Translations under genes and position numbers: made by a program
Part shown: in pieces, positions 19,855-48,898 of the stretch
Layout: each line of letters opens with the position of its first letter
How positions within the stretch are numbered: the stretch's first letter is position 1
Assembly: GCA_963734535.1 (NCBI GenBank)
Contig: CAVTHS010000003.1
Location: forward strand, 288,001 to 352,000
Length of the DNA stretch: 64,000 nt
Direction of reading: 5' to 3'
Source: an uncultured Chloroflexia bacterium
GTDB taxonomy: Bacteria > Chloroflexota > Limnocylindria > Limnocylindrales > CSP1-4
The notes under the pieces: generated by a model
What the model was told of the DNA's origin: nothing
The model's input: only the letters and a program-made list of their open reading frames with translations
Database searches by the model: none

Positions 19855-19980
19855 ATGCAGGACGCAGATCTGTTCCTGTCGCTGGCGGGGATCGCCGGCG
19901 TGTTCGTCGGCTTCGGGGCGCTCATGAGCGTCAGGAGCGGCGGCCCGAGGGTGGCTGACGAGGTCTCGAGCATCCGCTGC
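19855..19980 (+). pseudogene. 5' fragment of the membrane-protein family at 43789-45030
   Basis: MQDADLFLSLAGIAGVFVGFGALMSVRSGGP..EVSSIR nearly identical to the 44506-45030 N-terminus; similarity stops after about 41 codons. Confidence 0.8.
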
Positions 19981-20193
19981 TCTGAGTCAACGGGTCGGTA
20001 CCCCGATCCAACTCTGCTACAACGCGTCGCGGTCGTAGCCCGAGGATTTCAGCGCGGCTGGTGCCGGGACGCACAAATCGCGACCAACGCCTGACGTGCT
20101 CGGTACTAGCGAGTGAGGTTCCGGGCACGCCGGCGCGGTTAAGGTCAACGTGCCGCGCAACCGCCAGTCGATTGCGCCATTGTCGAGTGCAGC

Positions 20194-42369: not shown

Positions 42370-42882
42370 TCACTTTGCGGCCAGAGCCGTGCAGAGGTTG
42401 ACGACCTTTCCCTTGAACGAGTGCGTGACGGTGTTGAAGCCGGCGTCCAGCGTGTCGTGAGTGTGGCCAAGTGCCCACGACAACGACGGACCCGGCGAGT
42501 CCGTCGGGTACAGGTACCCGACGACGACGGTCCCGTCGATCCACACGTCGAGTGTCTTGTCCGCGTGGGTGACGAAGGTCTGGAGGGTTGGCCCTCCGAC
42601 GATCATCGAGGCGCCGGAGGTGATGTCCGTCACGGTCGACCATTGGGGTCCGTATGCGATGACCAGCAGGTCGCCGTTCCGCTGCACGGGAAACGTGAGG
42701 ACGTCCATCCTCGAGCCGTCCTCGACCCACCGGACTGGGAACGTGCACAGGACGCCCGCGTTGAACATGGAGTCGAAGGTCGTCCACCCTTTGGTGTGTG
42801 TCGGCCCGGCGGCGGCCGCGGGTGTGGCCAAGGTGACGACCAGCAGCAGCGCGCTGAGGCCAGCGGCGAGGAAGCGACGCAT
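42370..42882 (-). CDS. Secreted hypothetical protein (170 aa)
   Basis: Sec signal MRRFLAAGLSALLLVVTLATPAAAA; two Cys (LCTFPV, VNLCTAL); GGAGG SD. Confidence 0.8.
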   Translation of the reverse strand: MRRFLAAGLSALLLVVTLATPAAAAGPTHTKGWTTFDSMFNAGVLCTFPVRWVEDGSRMDVLTFPVQRNGDLLVIAYGPQWSTVTDITSGASMIVGGPTLQTFVTHADKTLDVWIDGTVVVGYLYPTDSPGPSLSWALGHTHDTLDAGFNTVTHSFKGKVVNLCTALAAK

Positions 42883-42905
42883 GGGGACCTCCCGGGACGC
42901 CGTTC

Positions 42906-42978
42906 ACGGGTCGGTCTCGCCAGTGGCTCGGCGCGGTCCCGGCGGCCAGAATGTGGGCCGCGTGTCCAAGCCTCCCGC
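42906..42978 (-). ncRNA. c-di-GMP-II-like riboswitch, copy 1
   Basis: GCGGG-A-GGC-TTG-GA-CACGCGG..TGGCCGCC..CCGCGCC-GA-GCC-ACTG-GCG-AGA-CC-GA-CCCGT: P1, K-turn, P3 and pseudoknot; 23 nt upstream of ATG; TGgGATAAT -10 upstream. Confidence 0.8.
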
Positions 42979-43162
42979 AGGCCTTCATTATCCCACCGAG
43001 GGGTAGTCACTCAGTGCACACGACCACCCCCCCCGGTCGCCCGGTGCGCCTCCCATCGTCCGGGCGGAGCGGAGCGCCCAGTGCGGAGCCGAGGGCCTGG
43101 GTCGTCGATGACCCATAGGCGTCTCGAGCGCCCGTCGGGCGGCTCCCGTGCTGGTCCGGCTG

Positions 43163-43790
43163 TCAACCGACGGCGACGGCCTCGTCTGCCCTCACGTCGT
43201 CCGCGGGCCGTACGGACATGGGCTTCACGGCCGCGACGATCGTCATCTCGTCAGTTCCCATCAGGAGCCGGCCCAGGAAGTTGTAGAGGCGGCTGTCGCC
43301 GAGGCGACCGTAGGAGTCGAGACATCATCGAACCCTGCTGCCTCCGTCATCCGCCGCACCTCGGCCTCGTTCCACACCCGGACCGTGCCGAGGACCTTGT
43401 GGGTCGCGGTCGCCTCGGCGACCGTCCGCCCGATCTGCATCGCGGCGCGCCCGCCGGGACGGAGTACCCGGCACATGTCGGACAGGACGCGTTCAGGATC
43501 GGCGAAGAGCGTGAAGGCGTCCATGGACGTGACAGCGCTGAAGCGAGCGTCCTCCCACGGGAGTGCCCCGGCGTCGTCCTCGACACCTCCGCTGTCCCCG
43601 CGGCGATGCGGTCGGCGAGGCGTCGTCGGGCCAGACCGACCTTGACCGCCGAGAGATCCACGCCCGCCACGTCTCGCACCCGCGAGGCGTGCTCGGCCAG
43701 GAAGGCTCCCTCCCCGCAGGCAACATCGAGCAACTCGTCCTCCGGCTGGGGGTCGAGCGTCGCGGCCATCCGCCGGTAGGGCGGGCAATC
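43163..43790 (-). pseudogene. Class I SAM methyltransferase paralog, N-terminally truncated, two frameshifts
   Basis: YRRMAATLDPQPEDELLDVACGEG / LPWEDARFSAVT..RVLRPGGR..AGFDDV / ..TIVAAVKP..EAVAVG*. Confidence 0.75.
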
Positions 43791-44346
43791 AGCCTCCGGA
43801 CGCGGGCGGCCCTCCACGATCAACGGCAACCGATGGATGTCGTTGCCAGAAGACCGCGACGAAGAGGTTGAGCGCGCCCATGAGCAGGCCGAGAGCGACC
43901 GCCGTGAGGTAGAGCGCCCGCTCCTGGTCCGGGAAGGGTCCGAGCACCACGAGCGCGAGGGCGAGGACGGCGAGCACGAAGGGCAGCCAGAAGGTGGGCC
44001 CCATCACCAGCGCTATCTTCGCCCGTGGGATGGTGGCAAGGTTGACAGCCAGCTCCGCCCGATTCTCGGGTGTCCGCGCGAACACGACGATCATGACCAC
44101 GAGGAGGGCGAGAGCCAGGAGGCTGCCCACGAGCCACAGCTCGTGGCCGGTGATGCCATAGCTGCTGATGATGACCGGCGCGAGGGCGGCGATAACCACC
44201 CAGATCGCGGTCGTCACCACCCAGCGGATGTCATTGACCTCGCTCACCTCGAGCGTTGCGCCGCTCCGCACGGCGATGAGCGCACCGAAGCCCACGAACA
44301 CGCCAGCGATCTCAGCAAGCGAAAGGAACAGACTGGTGTCCTGCAT
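43789..44346 (-). CDS. Hypothetical integral membrane protein (about 5 TM)
   Basis: MQDTSLFLSLAEIAGVFVGFGALIAVRSG; paralog of 44506-45030. Confidence 0.8.
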   Translation of the reverse strand: MQDTSLFLSLAEIAGVFVGFGALIAVRSGATLEVSEVNDIRWVVTTAIWVVIAALAPVIISSYGITGHELWLVGSLLALALLVVMIVVFARTPENRAELAVNLATIPRAKIALVMGPTFWLPFVLAVLALALVVLGPFPDQERALYLTAVALGLLMGALNLFVAVFWQRHPSVAVDRGGPPASGG

Positions 44347-44435
44347 GTCCCGCCATCTCCCACGCGTGTCACGGCCTTCGTGAAGGAGGGGAGTCTGGGT
44401 CGCGCCTGCGCCCGCTGAACAGAGGCATCGGTCGT

Positions 44436-44473
44436 GAAGGAGCCCCCAGCCAGCGAAGGAGCCCCCAGCCAGC
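44436..44473 (+). repeat. 19-bp perfect tandem duplication
   Basis: GAAGGAGCCCCCAGCCAGC x2 in the intergenic gap. Confidence 0.9.
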
Positions 44474-44505
44474 CGTCCCTGGGCTGGCCGGAGTCGCGAT
44501 GATCG

Positions 44506-45030
44506 TCAGGCGCTCGCGGGCCGTCGCTGCATGTAGACGAGCGAGAGAAGGGTCCACCCGGCCCCCAGCAGGATCAGCACGGTGTACGTGAAGTAGAGCG
44601 CCGCCTCGAGGTCCGGGGCCACGCCCAGCATGATGATGATCGGCGCGAGCACCATCACGAGCATGTAGAGGACATAGAACGCCCATCCGACCAGGTCGCC
44701 GGGCGTGAGCCTGGCCGCCGCGACGCTTGTCGCCCAGCCCGCCCTGTACTCGGGGGTCCGGGCGCTGACGGCGATCATGCCGAGCAAGCCGACGAGCGCG
44801 AGCGCGCTGCCGAGCGCCCAGACCTGGTGGTCGGTGAGGGCATAGCGGCCGAGGGCCACCGGGGCGAGGGCCGCGACGACCGTCAGCATCCCCAGCGCCA
44901 CCACGGTGCGCATGTACGCAACCTCCTCCACCTCGCTCGGGCCTCCGCTCCGCACGGCGATGAGTGCCCCGAAGCCGACGAACACGCCGGCGATCCCCGC
45001 GACCGAAAGGAACAGATCGGCGTCCTGCAT
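44506..45030 (-). CDS. Hypothetical integral membrane protein (about 5 TM)
   Basis: MQDADLFLSVAGIAGVFVGFGALIAVRSGGP; AALAPV, ARTPE, ALY motifs shared with neighbour; GGAGG SD. Confidence 0.8.
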   Translation of the reverse strand: MQDADLFLSVAGIAGVFVGFGALIAVRSGGPSEVEEVAYMRTVVALGMLTVVAALAPVALGRYALTDHQVWALGSALALVGLLGMIAVSARTPEYRAGWATSVAAARLTPGDLVGWAFYVLYMLVMVLAPIIIMLGVAPDLEAALYFTYTVLILLGAGWTLLSLVYMQRRPASA

Positions 45031-45051
45031 GTCCCGCTACCTCCTGCACTT

Positions 45052-45067
45052 CGTGATCGGGGTCAGG
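45052..45067. promoter_or_regulatory. CRP/FNR-like box (CGTGA-N6-TCAGG)
   Basis: Half-sites conserved and spacer diverged relative to 19818-19833. Confidence 0.35.
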
Positions 45068-45172
45068 ATCGGCCGCAGGGCCCGCTCCAGCTCCTGGGCT
45101 GTCAGCCGCGACCGAGCCATCGACGCGAATGCACTTCGGCTCCCACGATGAATGCCTGGCAGAGGCGCTGGT

Positions 45173-45976
45173 TCAGGCGGGCGCGGCGCTGCCCGTCAAC
45201 TCGCGCTGGCCGCCGACGCCAACGGCGGTGTTCCGCGGCGACGCGGCCGGCTTGCGGCAGCTCAGGACCAGCGCGGCCTCGTACAGCGGTTTGAGGCTCT
45301 CGTGGCGAACGGTGACGTCCGTGAACCCGGCGTCCTCGAACATCCGCAGGTAGTCGGCCTCGTCGCACCACCGGACCCCCCAGCTCACGGCCGGCTGCTT
45401 CGGCGACCGCCGTGGGTTGTAATCCACGAACACGAGGCGACCGCCCGGCCGCAGCACCCGGAATGCCTCGGCGTGCTTGATCGGCGCGTTGATCGCAGTC
45501 ACCGCGGAGAACCCGCCGTCCTCGAAGGGCAGCTCGGCGGCGCTGCCGGTGACCAGTTGGGCCGTCCCGGTGGCGATCCGGTCGGCGAGGCGCCGCTCGG
45601 CCGCCCGCAGCATGACCCGCGAGAGATCGAGGCCGACGACTCGGCGCACATGCTGCGCCTTCGCGCCCAAGAACGCCCCCGGCCCGCAGCCGATGTCCAG
45701 CAGCTCGTCCTCGGGCTGGAGGTCGAGCATCTCGGCGACGGTCTGGTACAGGCGAGCCTCGATCCACGGCATAACCTTGGCCATCACCCACCCCGTCGGC
45801 CCGTTACAGAAGAAAGCGCACTTCCCCCCGGGCGCGAACACCGTGAACATGGCGTCATCGTTGGGCGGCATGGCCTCCGATGCGCGCCCCCCGAGCCGGC
45901 CGCGGAGGATAGCGCCACCTGCCGCGGCGGCCGTGGCGCCGCCGGCGAGGAGAGCGAACGTGGTCCGTCTGCGCAT
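45173..45976 (-). CDS. Class I SAM methyltransferase with N-terminal signal/anchor
   Basis: MRRRTTFALLAGGATAAAAGG; LLDIGCGPG, GLDLS, LPFEDGGFSAV, RVLRPGG. Confidence 0.9.
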   Translation of the reverse strand: MRRRTTFALLAGGATAAAAGGAILRGRLGGRASEAMPPNDDAMFTVFAPGGKCAFFCNGPTGWVMAKVMPWIEARLYQTVAEMLDLQPEDELLDIGCGPGAFLGAKAQHVRRVVGLDLSRVMLRAAERRLADRIATGTAQLVTGSAAELPFEDGGFSAVTAINAPIKHAEAFRVLRPGGRLVFVDYNPRRSPKQPAVSWGVRWCDEADYLRMFEDAGFTDVTVRHESLKPLYEAALVLSCRKPAASPRNTAVGVGGQRELTGSAAPA

Positions 45977-46004
45977 GGCGCTATCCTCCCTGGGACGCCT
46001 GCGC

Positions 46005-46074
46005 GCGGGTCGGTGTCGCCAGTGGCTCGGCGCGGTCCCGCGGCCGGGGTGTGCCGCGTGTCAGAGCCTCCCGC
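46005..46074 (-). ncRNA. c-di-GMP-II-like riboswitch, copy 2
   Basis: GCGGG-A-GGC-TCT-GA-CACGCGG..CGGCCGC..CCGCGCC-GA-GCC-ACTG-GCG-ACA-CC-GA-CCCGC; TACAGT -10 at 46084-46089. Confidence 0.78.
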
Positions 46075-46202
46075 CAGTCCGTGACTGTAGGCGTCGAGTT
46101 CGCGTCCGTCGAGGGCCGGTCGGCAGGGACCCGGCCCGGGAACCCCGGCGCCGCCGCGAGCGTCCTCCTCGGCTCCCCGGGGAACGCACGCCGGGCGCCG
46201 AC

Positions 46203-47006
46203 TCAGGCGGACGCGGCGCTGGCGGTCAGCTCCTGCTGGTCGCCGACGTCGATCGAACGGCTCGGCGGCGCCGCCGCCGGCCTTCGGCAGACGGCGATCC
46301 GGTTGTCGGCGAGGAACAGGACGGGCTTGTAGCGGACGGCCACGTCCACGAAGCCCACATCCTCGAGAACCCGCTGAGTATCGGCCTCGGTCCAGTTCCA
46401 GGGGGGACCGGCAGTCCGCTCGCTCGACGGCTTCCTCGGGTCGGGGATGAGCTCGTCCACGAACACGAACCGTCCTCCGGGACGCAGCACGCGGAAGACC
46501 TCGGCCATGTTCGCCGGCGCCGTGATGGCCGTGACCGCGGAGAACTCGCCGTCGTCGAAGGGCAACACGGCCGAGCTGGCGGGCACGAGCCGGGCCGTCC
46601 CGCCGGACAGCCGGTCCGCAAGCCGCCGCTCGGCCTCGCGCAGCATGGTCCGCGAAGGATCGAGGCCGACGACCCGGCGAACGTGGGGAGCCTTGGAGGC
46701 CAGGAACGCCCCGGACCCGCACCCGATGTCGAGCAGCTCGTCCTCGGGCTGCAGGTCGAGCATCTCGGCAACGACCTCGTACACGCCCGCGTGACCGATC
46801 GGCTGGAGCTTCCCGAACGCCCAACCGATCGGCCCGTTGAAGAAGAAGCCCTGGGGTCCACCGGGCGCCCACTGCGTGAACTGCAGGTCCTCCTCTGACG
46901 ACGGCGGCGTCTCTCGCCCCTGGATCCTTGAGCGGGCGACCGCTGCGGCCGTGACGACGGCCAGCGTCCCGCCGCCGATGACAGCAAGGGTGGTGACACG
47001 GCGCAT
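46203..47006 (-). CDS. Class I SAM methyltransferase with N-terminal signal/anchor
   Basis: MRRVTTLAVIGGGTLAVVTAAAVA; LLDIGCGSG, GLDPS, LPFDDGEFSAV, RVLRPGG; paralog of 45173-45976. Confidence 0.9.
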   Translation of the reverse strand: MRRVTTLAVIGGGTLAVVTAAAVARSRIQGRETPPSSEEDLQFTQWAPGGPQGFFFNGPIGWAFGKLQPIGHAGVYEVVAEMLDLQPEDELLDIGCGSGAFLASKAPHVRRVVGLDPSRTMLREAERRLADRLSGGTARLVPASSAVLPFDDGEFSAVTAITAPANMAEVFRVLRPGGRFVFVDELIPDPRKPSSERTAGPPWNWTEADTQRVLEDVGFVDVAVRYKPVLFLADNRIAVCRRPAAAPPSRSIDVGDQQELTASAASA

Positions 47007-47036
47007 GGTGCGACCCCTCCCCAGGGACGCCTGCGC

Positions 47037-47110
47037 GCGGGTCGGTCTCGCCAGTGGCTCCGCGTGGTCAGTGGCGGCCGGGGTGGGGATCACGCATCAG
47101 AGCCTCCCGC
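47037..47110 (-). ncRNA. c-di-GMP-II-like riboswitch, copy 3
   Basis: GCGGG-A-GGC-TCT-GA-TGCGTG..CGGCCGCCA..CACGCG-GA-GCC-ACTG-GCG-AGA-CC-GA-CCCGC; P3 sequence differs from copies 1-2 but still pairs. Confidence 0.82.
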
Positions 47111-47366
47111 GTGGCTGTCAGGGTCGTGGTCCATACCACCGGCCGCAAGGGGCATTGGATGTGTAGTGCCCCGGTCGCCCGACCGTCGACTCGTCACCAG
47201 CAGGCGAGATCGTCCGGCCGGCGCGGAGCCGGGTGCGAGCAGGCGGTGCGGACTTGACCTTCGAGGAACCCGCACCCAAGCCGGGCTCAGCGGCGCCGGC
47301 TGGACTCCTCAAGTCAGCGGCATCCCTTCGCGGACGCTGGCCTTTGCGGCCCTCGGACTGCCAGCG

Positions 47367-48752
47367 TCACCGGAGGAAGGTCTTGAGCTGCTCCCACCAG
47401 GCGTAGAGGGCGGCGTAGTTGGAGTCATCGCGGGTCGCGAAGGCGAGGTAGCGTCCCTTGCCGAAGGTGAAGTAGATCCAGGGCCGCCCGTCGTACGGGT
47501 TCATGCAGGCGAGCTGCCCGCTTCCGCTCGGGCTGCTCCACAGCTGGTAGGCTCGCGCGTCGGTTACGCACGATCCGAAGGCGAGCTTGTGGAGGCCGGC
47601 CAGGAAGCCCAGATACTCATCGCCGGCGGTCGAATCTCTGGACGCGCCGGACAGGATCGGGGGGTCCGTGGAACTCGTGGGTTCCATGACGTACAGGCGG
47701 GTCGCGCCGGTCGCCGGGTGACACGTGACGCCGCCGCGTGAGCCGGTTGGTGTCACAGCGAGCAAGGTGTCAGGGCCGACCACCGGCATATGCTGGAGGA
47801 TGTACCCGGAGAAGCCCGCCAGGCTGGCATCATTCGGTGTCCCGCCGCGGACGCACGTGCGTGCAAGGTCGGGCGGCAGCGCGGCAAGGATCGCGGCCTC
47901 GGCCGCGTTGGGGAAGGGCCCGGGGCTCGCCGAGGCGGTGGGCGCGGCGGACGCCGAGGCCACGGCTGCCAGTGAGCCACCCGCGGACGCCCCGGGCGAT
48001 GCCGACGGGCCTGCCGGGCTCCCCGCCACGGAAGGGCCGGGCGTCGGGGTCGCGGCCCGGCCTCCACCGAGGAGGACGACCCCGACCGCAGCGACCACGA
48101 TAAAGGCGGCGAGCCCGAGGCCCGCGGCGATGAGACCGGACGGACGGCGCCCAGCCGGAGACGCAGCTGGAGCGCCGGCACCGGCGGTCCCCCGGGCCAC
48201 GACCCGGTAGCAGGCGACCGGCTCGGGGACGCCCTTGAGGCGGCGCAGGCCGAGGGGCTGGAACTCGACCTCGATCTGCGTTCGGGTCAGGCTGCGGACG
48301 GTCTCGGATACGACGAGCTCGCCGGACTTCGCCTCGGCACAGAGGCGGGCTGCGATGTTGACCGCCGAGCCGACGAAGCCTTCGGCGGTCTCGACGGTCT
48401 CCCCGGCGTGCACCCCCACGCCCACGTGGATCGGGTCGGGGTCGCCTGCCGTCACAACGGCTGCCGCGATGATCGCGAGGCCGCAGCCAACCGCGGCGCT
48501 CACCGAGTCGAAGACCACGTAGAAGGAGTCGCCCTCGGTCCGGATCTCGGCCCCCGCAGCGGCCGCCACGACCTCGCGGACGAGGGCGCGGTAGCGGGCA
48601 AGGAGGGCCGCCCCGGCGCGGTCCCCGTGGGCCTCGACGTAGCCCGTGTAGTCGCGCAGGTCAGCGAACAGGAAGCCGCGGGTCAGGTGGGGCGCATCGA
48701 CACCCGGCGCCGCGACCGGCAGTGGATACGCCGCAGGACCCGGTTCGGCCAT
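47367..48752 (-). CDS. Membrane-anchored class III nucleotide cyclase with C-terminal extracytoplasmic domain
   Basis: FLFADLRDYT, RTEGDSF, GVGVHAGE, GSAVNIAARL, LKGV; one TM; S/P/A linker; Cys-containing domain ending LYAWW; GGAGG SD. Confidence 0.88.
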   Translation of the reverse strand: MAEPGPAAYPLPVAAPGVDAPHLTRGFLFADLRDYTGYVEAHGDRAGAALLARYRALVREVVAAAAGAEIRTEGDSFYVVFDSVSAAVGCGLAIIAAAVVTAGDPDPIHVGVGVHAGETVETAEGFVGSAVNIAARLCAEAKSGELVVSETVRSLTRTQIEVEFQPLGLRRLKGVPEPVACYRVVARGTAGAGAPAASPAGRRPSGLIAAGLGLAAFIVVAAVGVVLLGGGRAATPTPGPSVAGSPAGPSASPGASAGGSLAAVASASAAPTASASPGPFPNAAEAAILAALPPDLARTCVRGGTPNDASLAGFSGYILQHMPVVGPDTLLAVTPTGSRGGVTCHPATGATRLYVMEPTSSTDPPILSGASRDSTAGDEYLGFLAGLHKLAFGSCVTDARAYQLWSSPSGSGQLACMNPYDGRPWIYFTFGKGRYLAFATRDDSNYAALYAWWEQLKTFLR

Positions 48753-48898
48753 GGGGAGCGACCTCCGCCCGAAGGTTCCGGCTGGCGGGACACAGCCGCC
48801 AGAGGCGTTCGTCACCAATTCGAGCCTGCGGCCCCCGGGCGTCCGGAGTCAGTCGCTGACTTGATCCCAGCACGGCGGTCGCACCATCGAGGGCGCCC

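What the first reader, a model, noticed from the sequence alone, without database searches (positions are those of the whole stretch)
42906..47110. Three c-di-GMP-II-like riboswitch aptamers within 4.2 kb
Seen: minus-strand elements at 42906-42978, 46005-46074 and 47037-47110 share GCGGGAGGC-NNN-GA..GGCCGC..GAGCCACTGGCGA(G/C)ACCGACCCG. They give P1 GCGGG/CCCGY, a K-turn (GGC, 3-nt bulge, GA / GA-GCC), a P3 that changes sequence yet pairs (CGCGG/CCGCG vs GCGTG/CACGC) and a pseudoknot GG-C-CGC / GCG-NNA-CC. Established: this matches class II c-di-GMP aptamer architecture (clostridial GGAAAC..UGA..GGGCAC..GAGUUAGUAGUGCAACCGACC, recalled from memory). I am not aware of SAM methyltransferases as typical targets of this class.
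Basis: partly seen in the sequence, partly recalled or inferred. Interest (0 to 1): 0.85.

Follow-up and report, generated by a model that had tools for sequence, protein, structure and literature searches.

The report
Three variant c-di-GMP-II (GAG) riboswitch leaders
The three elements are real members of a catalogued riboswitch family, a variant of the class II cyclic-di-GMP sensor whose ligand-reading base is changed, and they belong to a large set of such leaders that this group of Chloroflexota bacteria places in front of exported proteins and methyltransferases.

Summary
Observation confirmed. The shared pattern occurs 3 times in the window against 0 in 100 shuffles. Rfam places all three in RF03169, c-di-GMP-II-GAG, at 76.1, 72.7 and 45.3 bits against a cut-off of 40. 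All three fall below the cut-off of the canonical c-di-GMP-II model: 41.2, 38.1 and 16.4 against 53.5.

The variant changes nucleotide 69, the adenine that reads one guanine of c-di-GMP in the solved structure (PMC13715770), to G. Copy 2 alone has C there and also a broken pseudoknot pair.

Each element lies 25-32 nt before a Shine-Dalgarno site and start codon, with no terminator, so control is probably translational. The direction of the switch is unresolved.

The genus carries 2-47 matches per genome in 23 of 24 genomes. It also carries one canonical c-di-GMP-II riboswitch per genome in 22 of 31. Downstream genes are mostly exported or membrane proteins (64 of 87). SAM methyltransferases are the commonest Pfam class among them (9 of 87).

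I found no paper that names a ligand for this variant. This is a new member of a known kind; the interest lies in the unassigned ligand and the size of the regulon.

The parts
47031..47116 (-). Aptamer copy 1, RF03169 c-di-GMP-II-GAG. Nucleotides 67-69 are GAG at 47049-47047.
   Evidence: 76.1 bits, E 1.6e-13; 41.2 bits on RF01786, below its cut-off; 61.3 bits on RF03170.
47007..47030 (-). Linker and ribosome-binding region of copy 1: GCGUCCC at 47030-47024, G-rich Shine-Dalgarno at 47022-47014, ATG at 47006-47004.
   Evidence: Sequence read. GCGTCCC is present in 35 of 78 genus linkers.
46203..47006 (-). MT1: 267-aa class I SAM methyltransferase with an N-terminal hydrophobic anchor.
   Evidence: Methyltransf_25 6.5e-15, Methyltransf_11 3.4e-14; no NCBIfam model above its cut-off.
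45999..46080 (-). Aptamer copy 2, a weak and atypical RF03169 member. Nucleotides 67-69 are GAC (C at 46015). It has a G.G pseudoknot mismatch and a P3 region 4 nt shorter.
   Evidence: 45.3 bits; 16.4 bits on RF01786; the only GAC among 132 distinct copies, and among all fetched loci plus the own genome.
45977..45998 (-). Linker and ribosome-binding region of copy 2: GCGUCCC at 45998-45992, GGGAGG at 45990-45985, ATG at 45976-45974.
45173..45976 (-). MT2: 267-aa paralogue of MT1, 55% identical.
   Evidence: E 1e-88.
44506..45030 (-). Membrane protein 1 (174 aa, no Pfam or NCBIfam family). Its family recurs in aptamer clusters of the genus.
   Evidence: tblastn hits to copies in L036, L046, L048, L049, L052, L047 and L007.
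43789..44346 (-). Membrane protein 2 (185 aa), 49% identical paralogue of membrane protein 1.
43315..43817 (-). Relic of a third methyltransferase paralogue. It matches in two frames with a shift near 43584, lacks the first ~63 residues, and has no aptamer of its own.
   Evidence: tblastn 50-53% identity over residues 64-141, then 30% over residues 141-224 in another frame.
42900..42984 (-). Aptamer copy 3, RF03169. Nucleotides 67-69 are GAG at 42918-42916.
   Evidence: 72.7 bits; 38.1 bits on RF01786; 61.4 bits on RF03170.
42883..42901 (-). Linker and ribosome-binding region of copy 3: GGCGUCCC at 42901-42894, GGGAGG at 42893-42888, ATG at 42882-42880.
42370..42882 (-). 170-aa protein with a signal-peptide-like N terminus and no known family.
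   Evidence: 98% identical fragment in L041 behind an aptamer.
46084..46112 (-). Promoter-like pattern of copy 2: TCGACG, 17 nt, TACAGT. It would put the transcript start 3-4 nt before P1. Pattern match only.
   Evidence: Read. The same pattern class is seen in 56 of 133 genus flanks. The strict consensus scan found none.
42987..42995 (-). Extended -10-like TGGGATAAT before copy 3. Pattern match only.
   Evidence: The GGGAYAAT type occurs in 7 of 133 flanks.
47367..48818 (-). Neighbouring gene, probably not part of the unit: 483-aa protein with a class III nucleotidyl cyclase domain. It ends 250 nt before copy 1.
   Evidence: PF00211, 4.6e-10. The neighbourhood is not conserved.

Best explanation
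The three elements are the aptamer domains of c-di-GMP-II-GAG variant riboswitches (Rfam RF03169). Each sits at the 5' end of its own transcript and controls translation of the gene that starts 25-32 nt after the conserved core. The genes are two paralogous membrane-anchored SAM methyltransferases and a small exported protein. The fold is that of the class II c-di-GMP aptamer: P1, a kink-turn between P2 and P3, and a pseudoknot between the P3 loop and the 3' tail. Nucleotides 70 and 73 of the binding pocket are kept. The adenine at position 69, which reads one guanine of c-di-GMP in the canonical RNA, is G. Inferred, not shown: the RNA binds a cyclic dinucleotide or a close relative. My odds are about 0.75 for that class, about 0.3 for c-di-GMP itself and about 0.45 for another dinucleotide such as 3',3'-cGAMP. 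Ligand binding would lock P1/P2 against an alternative pairing of the aptamer's 5' strand (GGGAGGC) with the linker GCGUCCC that abuts the Shine-Dalgarno site. The direction of the switch is unresolved; I put ON with ligand at about 0.5 and OFF at about 0.35. Copy 2 is either a decaying copy or one with changed specificity. The three belong to a genus-wide regulon of exported and envelope proteins. The confidence given is for family membership and a cis-regulatory role in translation, not for the ligand or the direction of the switch.
For: Family: RF03169 scores of 76.1, 72.7 and 45.3 bits against a cut-off of 40. These exceed the scores on RF03170 (61.3, 61.4, 35.2) and on RF01786 (41.2, 38.1, 16.4, cut-off 53.5). 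Structure: on 132 distinct genus copies, 81.4% of cells pair, against 27-39% when the partners are slid by 1-3 columns. 17 of 29 pairs show changes on both sides, and 0 of 500 shuffles reach the observed values. The pseudoknot pair formed by nucleotide 68 reads C.A 109, U-A 14 and C-G 5. Pocket: positions 67-69 are GAG in 120 of 132 copies; A70 is kept in 122 and G73 in 122. In the canonical RNA, A69 reads G-alpha, G73 with the A70 ribose reads G-beta, and A70 intercalates (PMC13715770, whole text read). Cis-regulatory position: of 132 distinct aptamers, 114 had a downstream ORF pick. 87 of those have a Shine-Dalgarno motif and a start within 60 nt of the model's end, most at 10-25 nt. There is no terminator-like site between any aptamer and its gene. 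Switching element: the aptamer 5' strand is more complementary to the linker than to shuffled linkers, with mean z -1.09; 26 of 77 fall below -1.65 and 0 above +1.65. Six SRPBCC-gene leaders have GGGUC or GCGGGUC before the AUG, complementary to the P1 3' strand, which is ON-switch logic (read by eye). Regulon: 23 of 24 congeneric genomes hold 2-47 matches, 289 in all including the window's genome. 64 of 87 downstream proteins have an N-terminal hydrophobic segment, against 19.8% of 2506 crudely called background ORFs. Signalling capacity: the own genome holds 19 GGDEF matches and 9 EAL matches (some split across frames), plus 1 DAC and 1 SMODS domain.
Against: No ligand was tested, and I found no paper that assigns one. 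The defining paper, Weinberg et al. 2017 PNAS, is not held. Within the genus the sequences are so alike (84% mean column identity) that covariation is limited and partly reflects relatedness. Thermodynamic modelling gave no consistent effect of aptamer formation on Shine-Dalgarno accessibility: mean unpaired 0.45 with the aptamer enforced against 0.42 free, across 85 leaders. Three other candidate pairings were not enriched: P1 3' strand and tail with the Shine-Dalgarno region (mean z 0.16), linker with the start region (z -0.29), and 5' flank with the Shine-Dalgarno region (z 0.40). The linker is equally complementary to the Shine-Dalgarno site itself, so the partner I name is an inference from geometry: only 0-3 nt separate them. 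I saw no compensatory change between the linker and the 5' strand (by eye). Copy 2 barely passes the cut-off.
Confidence: 0.8

Rival explanations
1. They are ordinary c-di-GMP sensors. The GAG change only tunes affinity, and the elements respond to the same c-di-GMP pool as canonical class II riboswitches.
For: The fold and clan are the same. A70, G73 and the pseudoknot are kept. The genome is rich in GGDEF and EAL domains. The targets are exported and surface proteins, typical of c-di-GMP regulons (the typicality is from general knowledge).
Against: The nucleotide that makes three hydrogen bonds to G-alpha (A69) is G in 127 of 132 copies (PMC13715770). All three window copies miss the RF01786 cut-off. 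22 of 31 genomes of the genus also keep exactly one canonical GCA-A riboswitch. It has a different, terminator-type platform, before an HD-GYP-type gene in the two loci checked. Two classes maintained side by side suggests two different functions.
Confidence: 0.3
2. They are not ligand sensors. They would be a repeated structured leader, spread together with its promoter as a cassette, that acts constitutively or binds a protein, for example at the kink-turn.
For: Copies are very alike (84% mean column identity) and numerous. A promoter-like module travels with many of them: 44-56 of 133 flanks. No ligand is in print in the library I searched.
Against: Conservation is concentrated on the pocket and pseudoknot positions of a known ligand-binding fold. 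The family also occurs in 37 of 151 genomes across the phylum, and in the control genome Deinococcus radiodurans. Position and strand relative to start codons are fixed.
Confidence: 0.1
3. Copy 2 alone (45999-46080) is a decayed aptamer that no longer switches, which would leave MT2 constitutively expressed or silent.
For: It has the lowest score, 45.3 bits, and 63.3 against 78.8 and 86.0 on the genus model. It is the only GAC, it has the only G.G at pseudoknot pair 51-74 of 132 copies, and its P3 region lacks 4 nt.
Against: P1, P2, the kink-turn, A70 and G73 are intact. The linker and Shine-Dalgarno region match those of copy 1. MT2 is intact with GC3 of 0.91. The score is still above the Rfam cut-off.
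Confidence: 0.45

Closest known systems
c-di-GMP-II-GAG riboswitch aptamer (Rfam RF03169; as I recall, from Weinberg et al. 2017 PNAS 114:E2077, which I could not read)
   Same: Full-length matches over the cut-off. Same helices, pseudoknot and GAG at positions 67-69 in copies 1 and 3.
   Different: Copy 2 has GAC and a pseudoknot mismatch. In this genus the outer half of the model's 11-bp P1 is not conserved, with 55-65 of 132 copies unpaired there. Pseudoknot position 68 mostly faces C (C.A), where the Rfam consensus has U.
Canonical c-di-GMP-II riboswitch (RF01786; structure 3Q3Z as described in PMC13715770)
   Same: Three-helix junction, kink-turn, pseudoknot, A70 and G73.
   Different: C68 and A69 are replaced by A and G. 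The scores are below the cut-off. The platform here is at the ribosome-binding site, whereas the genus's own canonical copy has a terminator-like hairpin.
c-di-GMP-II-GCG (RF03170)
   Same: It shares G at position 69. Copies 1 and 3 also pass its cut-off, at 61.3 and 61.4 against 47.9.
   Different: Position 68 is C there and A here. RF03169 scores higher for all three copies.
GEMM-I riboswitches that sense cGAMP in Geobacter, and the engineered c-di-GMP-II-Bh RNA
   Same: Both are precedents that small changes in a c-di-GMP aptamer re-aim it at another cyclic dinucleotide. The engineered RNA binds 3',3'-cGAMP at 11.1 nM (PMC13715770). Geobacter also has many leaders per genome (recalled).
   Different: No binding data exist here. 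The Bh RNA keeps adenine at the position equivalent to 69.

Membership tests
RF03169 c-di-GMP-II-GAG | Covariance-model score at or above the curated cut-off (40 bits) | tested here: met
   76.1, 72.7 and 45.3 bits. It is the best-scoring model of the clan for all three.
RF03169 c-di-GMP-II-GAG | P1, P2, P3 and the kink-turn (3-nt bulge, tandem G.A) | tested here: met
   cmscan alignments. In the genus, P2 is 97% paired, P3 84%, core P1 pairs are standard in 121-125 of 132, and the kink-turn G and A are conserved in 128-129 of 132.
RF03169 c-di-GMP-II-GAG | Pseudoknot between the P3 loop (GG..CGCC) and the 3' tail (GGCG..CC) | tested here: met
   Copies 1 and 3 pair at all positions apart from the usual C.A at nucleotide 68. 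Copy 2 has one G.G mismatch.
RF03169 c-di-GMP-II-GAG | GAG at positions 67-69, where the canonical RNA has GCA | tested here: met
   Met for copies 1 and 3 (47049-47047, 42918-42916). Not met for copy 2, which has GAC with C at 46015.
RF03169 c-di-GMP-II-GAG | Sense orientation in the 5' leader of a gene | tested here: met
   Start codons lie 25-32 nt after the conserved core, each with a Shine-Dalgarno motif.
RF03169 c-di-GMP-II-GAG | Ligand-dependent gene control | not testable with these tools
No ligand was found in print.
RF01786 canonical c-di-GMP-II | Score at or above the cut-off (53.5 bits) | tested here: not met
   41.2, 38.1 and 16.4 bits. A true canonical copy in the same genome scores 61.4.
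   G in copies 1 and 3, C in copy 2. The role of A69 is taken from PMC13715770.
RF01786 canonical c-di-GMP-II | A70 (intercalating) and G73 (reader of G-beta) | tested here: met
   Both are present in all three copies and in 122 of 132 genus copies.

The most novel reading that the evidence does not exclude
The GAG variant is a separate sensor for a second cyclic dinucleotide, for example 3',3'-cGAMP, or another nucleotide signal. In these Chloroflexota it would run a second and much larger regulon of up to 47 leaders in a 3-Mb genome, mostly exported and envelope proteins and membrane-anchored methyltransferases. That regulon would sit beside a single canonical c-di-GMP-II riboswitch that controls an HD-GYP-type phosphodiesterase. 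Copy 2 (GAC) would then be a further specificity variant.
Probability: 0.3. Interest if true: 0.7.

Novelty: new member of a known kind. Interest (0 to 1): 0.4.

Why it matters
As far as I could find, the family has no assigned ligand. This genus offers hundreds of natural copies with a clear target set, mostly exported proteins. In most genomes searched (22 of 31) it also offers a canonical c-di-GMP-II copy in the same genome as an internal control, and natural pocket variants at positions 68-69 (GAG, GGG, GAA, GAC). That makes the ligand question directly testable by binding assays. If the ligand differs from c-di-GMP, it would reveal a second dinucleotide signalling channel in a poorly studied soil phylum. 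As an annotation the result is ordinary: three hits to a curated Rfam model.

Tried and rejected
1. Canonical c-di-GMP-II membership is rejected: all three copies score below the cut-off.

2. Folding 85 leaders with the aptamer enforced or free gave no consistent change in Shine-Dalgarno accessibility (0.45 against 0.42). I draw no direction of switching from it.

3. Three other pairings were tested against shuffles and were not enriched. P1 3' strand and tail with the Shine-Dalgarno region: z 0.16. Linker with Shine-Dalgarno to AUG+15: z -0.29, and local fold: z -0.02. 5' flank with the Shine-Dalgarno region, which would extend P1: z 0.40.

4. The class III cyclase next to copy 1 is not a conserved neighbour, so I rejected it as the source of the ligand. 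Among the fetched loci, only L026 and L090 show a 32-33% identical cyclase domain near an aptamer.

5. A Rec-GGDEF protein in the own genome (C2:292029-293054) has Thr at the position that is Ser348 in Hypr GGDEF enzymes (passages of PMC6456294), with an intact GGDEF motif. Its orthologues were found in only 9 of 31 genomes of the genus, counting the window's own. They were not found in the three genomes richest in aptamers: G021, G015 and G011. This gives no support for cGAMP.

6. Public runs: only assembled contigs were available. Contigs of one RNA-library run (X14) pile up on the aptamer bins, with summed depth 739 at 42813-42983 against 0-9 beside it. They also cover parts of MT1 and MT2 with 3-7 differences. 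Contigs cannot show transcription starts, strand or level, and DNA can be present in such a library, so I draw no conclusion on expression.

7. The strict sigma-70 scan found no promoter. It found one terminator-like site inside the MT1 ORF, at chance level.

8. NCBIfam gave no specific name for the methyltransferases, the membrane proteins or the secreted protein.

9. Literature: no paper in the searched library names a ligand for the GAG variant (passages read). Weinberg et al. 2017 PNAS and Smith et al. 2011 PNAS are not held. Their text and supplements, which I could not see, may contain gene associations or binding tests that bear on the ligand and novelty claims. What I say about their content is recalled.

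Full report
THE OBSERVATION. The three minus-strand elements exist as described. It matches none of 100 dinucleotide-preserving shuffles of the window. A gathering-threshold scan of the whole window against Rfam 15 gives three hits to RF03169, c-di-GMP-II-GAG: 47116-47031 (76.1 bits, E 1.6e-13), 42984-42900 (72.7 bits) and 46080-45999 (45.3 bits), against a cut-off of 40. The only other Rfam hits in the window are two tRNAs.

WHICH FAMILY. I scored the same places with the two related models over the whole genome. On the canonical c-di-GMP-II model (RF01786, cut-off 53.5) the three reach 41.2, 38.1 and 16.4 bits. A fourth element elsewhere in the genome (C14:279173-279258) reaches 61.4 and is a true canonical copy. 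On RF03170 (c-di-GMP-II-GCG, cut-off 47.9) the three reach 61.3, 61.4 and 35.2. RF03169 is therefore the best model for all three. The canonical family is excluded by its own threshold.

WHAT THE VARIANT CHANGES. Comparing the two Rfam consensus lines, the canonical 3' tail GUGCAACCG reads GGCGAGACCG here. Positions 67-69 are therefore GAG instead of GCA. I read one paper in full, PMC13715770. It describes the canonical structure 3Q3Z as follows. G-alpha of c-di-GMP makes three hydrogen bonds to the sugar edge of A69. G-beta is read by G73 and the ribose of A70. A70 stacks between the two bases. The same paper shows that an engineered class II RNA binds 3',3'-cGAMP at 11.1 nM and 2',3'-cGAMP at 460 nM, so this pocket can be re-aimed.

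COPY 2 IS ATYPICAL. I built a covariance model from 23 copies and searched 475 kb of fetched loci from the window and 24 genomes of the same genus. That gave 153 hits, of which 150 were aligned and 132 are distinct. Positions 67-69 read:
- GAG in 120 copies
- GGG in 4
- GGA in 1
- GAA in 2
- GAC in 1, which is window copy 2
- four degenerate forms.
Nucleotide 68 faces a loop base as C.A in 109 copies, U-A in 14 and C-G in 5, and every G68 copy has the C-G pair. Copy 2 also has the only G.G at pseudoknot pair 51-74, and its P3 region is 4 nt shorter. A pattern search of all loci and the whole own genome found its GAC-A only at this place. It is either decaying or differently tuned.

SUPPORT FOR THE STRUCTURE. 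With the pseudoknot written in, 81.4% of cells pair, against 27-39% when partners are slid by 1-3 columns. 17 of 29 pairs show changes on both sides, and none of 500 shuffles reaches the observed values. The copies are close relatives (84% mean column identity) and the alignment was fitted to the model. This supports the Rfam structure but does not establish it independently.

ANATOMY OF THE THREE UNITS.
- Copy 1 is followed by GCGUCCC (47030-47024), a G-rich Shine-Dalgarno site (47022-47014) and ATG 47006. The gene is a 267-aa protein with a hydrophobic N terminus and a class I SAM methyltransferase domain.
- Copy 2 has the same linker (45998-45992), GGGAGG, and ATG 45976. Its gene is a 55% identical paralogue.
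- Downstream of MT2 lie two paralogous membrane proteins of no known family. After them is a frameshifted, 5'-truncated relic of a third methyltransferase at 43817-43315.
- Copy 3 has GGCGUCCC (42901-42894), GGGAGG, and ATG 42882. Its gene is a 170-aa protein with a signal-peptide-like start and no family.
No terminator-like site lies between any aptamer and its gene. Promoter-like patterns lie just upstream: TCGACG-17 nt-TACAGT before copy 2 and TGGGATAAT before copy 3. They would start the transcripts 0-6 nt before P1. Similar patterns occur in 56 of 133 genus flanks, and a longer shared CTCTCGCC-type motif in 44. These are pattern matches, not evidence of function.

HOW IT MAY SWITCH. The short distance to the ribosome-binding site and the absence of terminators point to control of translation. 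I tested several possible switching helices against shuffled controls. Only one was enriched: the aptamer's 5' strand (GCGGGAGGCU) with the linker. Its mean z is -1.09; 26 of 77 leaders fall below -1.65 and none above +1.65. GCGTCCC is present in 35 of 78 linkers. The linker is equally complementary to the Shine-Dalgarno site, but it lies 0-3 nt from it and so cannot hairpin onto it. I therefore infer that the linker competes with P1/P2 for the 5' strand. In six leaders of SRPBCC-domain genes, GGGUC or GCGGGUC before the AUG is complementary to the P1 3' strand, which is classic ON logic (by eye). Constrained against free folding and three other pairings gave nothing. The direction of the switch is not established.

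THE WIDER SET. RF03169 matches were found in 23 of 24 other genomes of the genus, at 2-47 per genome. Counting the window's genome, that is 289 matches at E up to 0.001. They were found in 0 of 16 genomes of the small-genome sister family. Across the phylum, 37 of 151 sampled genomes have a match over the cut-off, mostly 1-6 copies; this becomes 36 of 150 without the unpublished G184. Record titles of the closest methyltransferase relatives label them Chloroflexia, Chloroflexota or Ca. Limnocylindrales MAGs, so the phylum is Chloroflexota. Copies often cluster, for example five within 7 kb in L037.

TARGET GENES. Of the 132 distinct aptamers, 114 had a downstream ORF pick and 87 met my reliability rule: Shine-Dalgarno motif, start within 60 nt, at least 60 aa, GC3 of at least 0.8. 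The other 45 were left out of the counts. Pfam finds the following among the 87:
- 9 class I methyltransferases
- 8 SRPBCC/polyketide-cyclase-like proteins
- 4 alpha/beta hydrolases
- 4 SnoaL-like proteins
- 3 family-3 solute-binding proteins (SBP_bac_3) and 2 Peripla_BP_4 periplasmic binding proteins
- 2 GDSL lipases
- one RCC1-repeat protein and one subtilase.
Few other families match more than one protein. 64 of the 87 have an N-terminal hydrophobic 12-mer, against 19.8% of 2506 crudely called ORFs of the own genome. Of 24 loci encoding relatives of MT1 (at least 37% identity), 9 have the aptamer directly upstream and 6 more have it 600-1100 nt upstream on the same strand. None of 22 more distant loci from other phyla has one. 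Methyltransferases are therefore regular targets here.

COEXISTENCE WITH THE CANONICAL CLASS. In 22 of 31 genomes of the genus there is one match over the RF01786 cut-off (59-69 bits). G001 has a second, at 54.2 bits, which scores better as GAG. The 13 canonical copies I read all have GCA-A. Most are followed by a terminator-like hairpin (GACCGAC...GGUCGGUUU, with small variations) that overlaps the aptamer's 3' end. In L163 and L164 the next gene encodes a membrane protein with an HD_5 (HD-GYP-type) domain. In the window's own genome no intact ORF was seen there. All 14 contigs have 71-73% G+C, so that copy is not obvious contamination. Two classes kept side by side, with different platforms and targets, is what one would expect if they answer to different signals. 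It does not prove it.

CANDIDATE SIGNALS. The own genome has 19 GGDEF and 9 EAL matches (some split across frames), 6 class III cyclase domains, one DAC and one SMODS domain. No cyclic dinucleotide is excluded by that. The cyclase next to copy 1 is not a conserved neighbour. A Hypr-like Rec-GGDEF does not track the aptamer-rich genomes.

VERDICT. The elements are new members of a catalogued family, so the novelty of the three copies themselves is low. What raises the interest is threefold. I found no ligand in print for the variant. The regulon in this genus is large and has coherent targets. Natural pocket variants and an in-genome canonical control are available.

Noticed in passing
Own genome C14:279173-279258 (-), locus L004; orthologous loci L153-L164: There is one canonical c-di-GMP-II riboswitch (GCA-A) per genome in 22 of 31 genomes of the genus. 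It has a terminator-like hairpin overlapping the aptamer's 3' end. In L163 and L164 the downstream gene encodes a membrane protein with an HD_5 (HD-GYP-type) domain, which could form a feedback loop. In the window's own genome no intact ORF follows it.
   Followed up: partly
5' flanks of aptamers; window 46084-46112 (-) and 42987-42995 (-): A shared promoter-like module lies upstream of many genus copies: CTCTCGCCAGAT..17 nt..TACGGT in 44-56 of 133 flanks, and a GGGAYAAT type in 7. It is often preceded by a GGGGC..GCCCC inverted repeat. Promoter and aptamer may spread together as one cassette.
   Followed up: partly
window 43315-43817 (-): Frameshifted, 5'-truncated relic of a third methyltransferase paralogue, directly after the second membrane-protein gene. 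It has no aptamer.
   Followed up: partly
Own genome C3:286069-286152 (+), locus L005, 1.85 kb left of the window; C7:266433-266523 (+), locus L006: Two sub-threshold RF03169 matches, at 38.3 and 34.7 bits. L005 has broken P1 and P3 pairing and looks like a decayed copy.
   Followed up: partly
window 19855-20001 (+): A 47-49 residue stretch is 59-68% identical to the N terminus of the two membrane proteins of the cluster. It may be a fragment or a further family member.
   Followed up: no
window 47367-48818 (-): A gene encoding a protein with a class III adenylate/guanylate cyclase domain (PF00211) ends 250 nt upstream of aptamer copy 1. The neighbourhood is not conserved in the genus loci I fetched.
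   Followed up: partly
Own genome C2:292029-293054 (-), locus L142/L143: A Rec-GGDEF protein has Thr at the selectivity position that is Ser348 in Hypr (cGAMP-making) GGDEF enzymes, with an intact GGDEF motif. Orthologues were found in only 9 of 31 genomes of the genus.
   Followed up: partly
L045:3706-3790 (-) and L064:176-260 (+): These leaders have the GCGUCCC linker motif duplicated, or set 12-13 nt from the Shine-Dalgarno site. There it could hairpin onto the site, unlike in the window's copies.
   Followed up: no
window 42813-42983, 45891-46061, 46917-47087: In soil metagenome and metatranscriptome contig sets, the bins that hold the aptamers collect far more contig depth than the genes beside them. 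This fits many near-identical copies in related organisms.
   Followed up: partly
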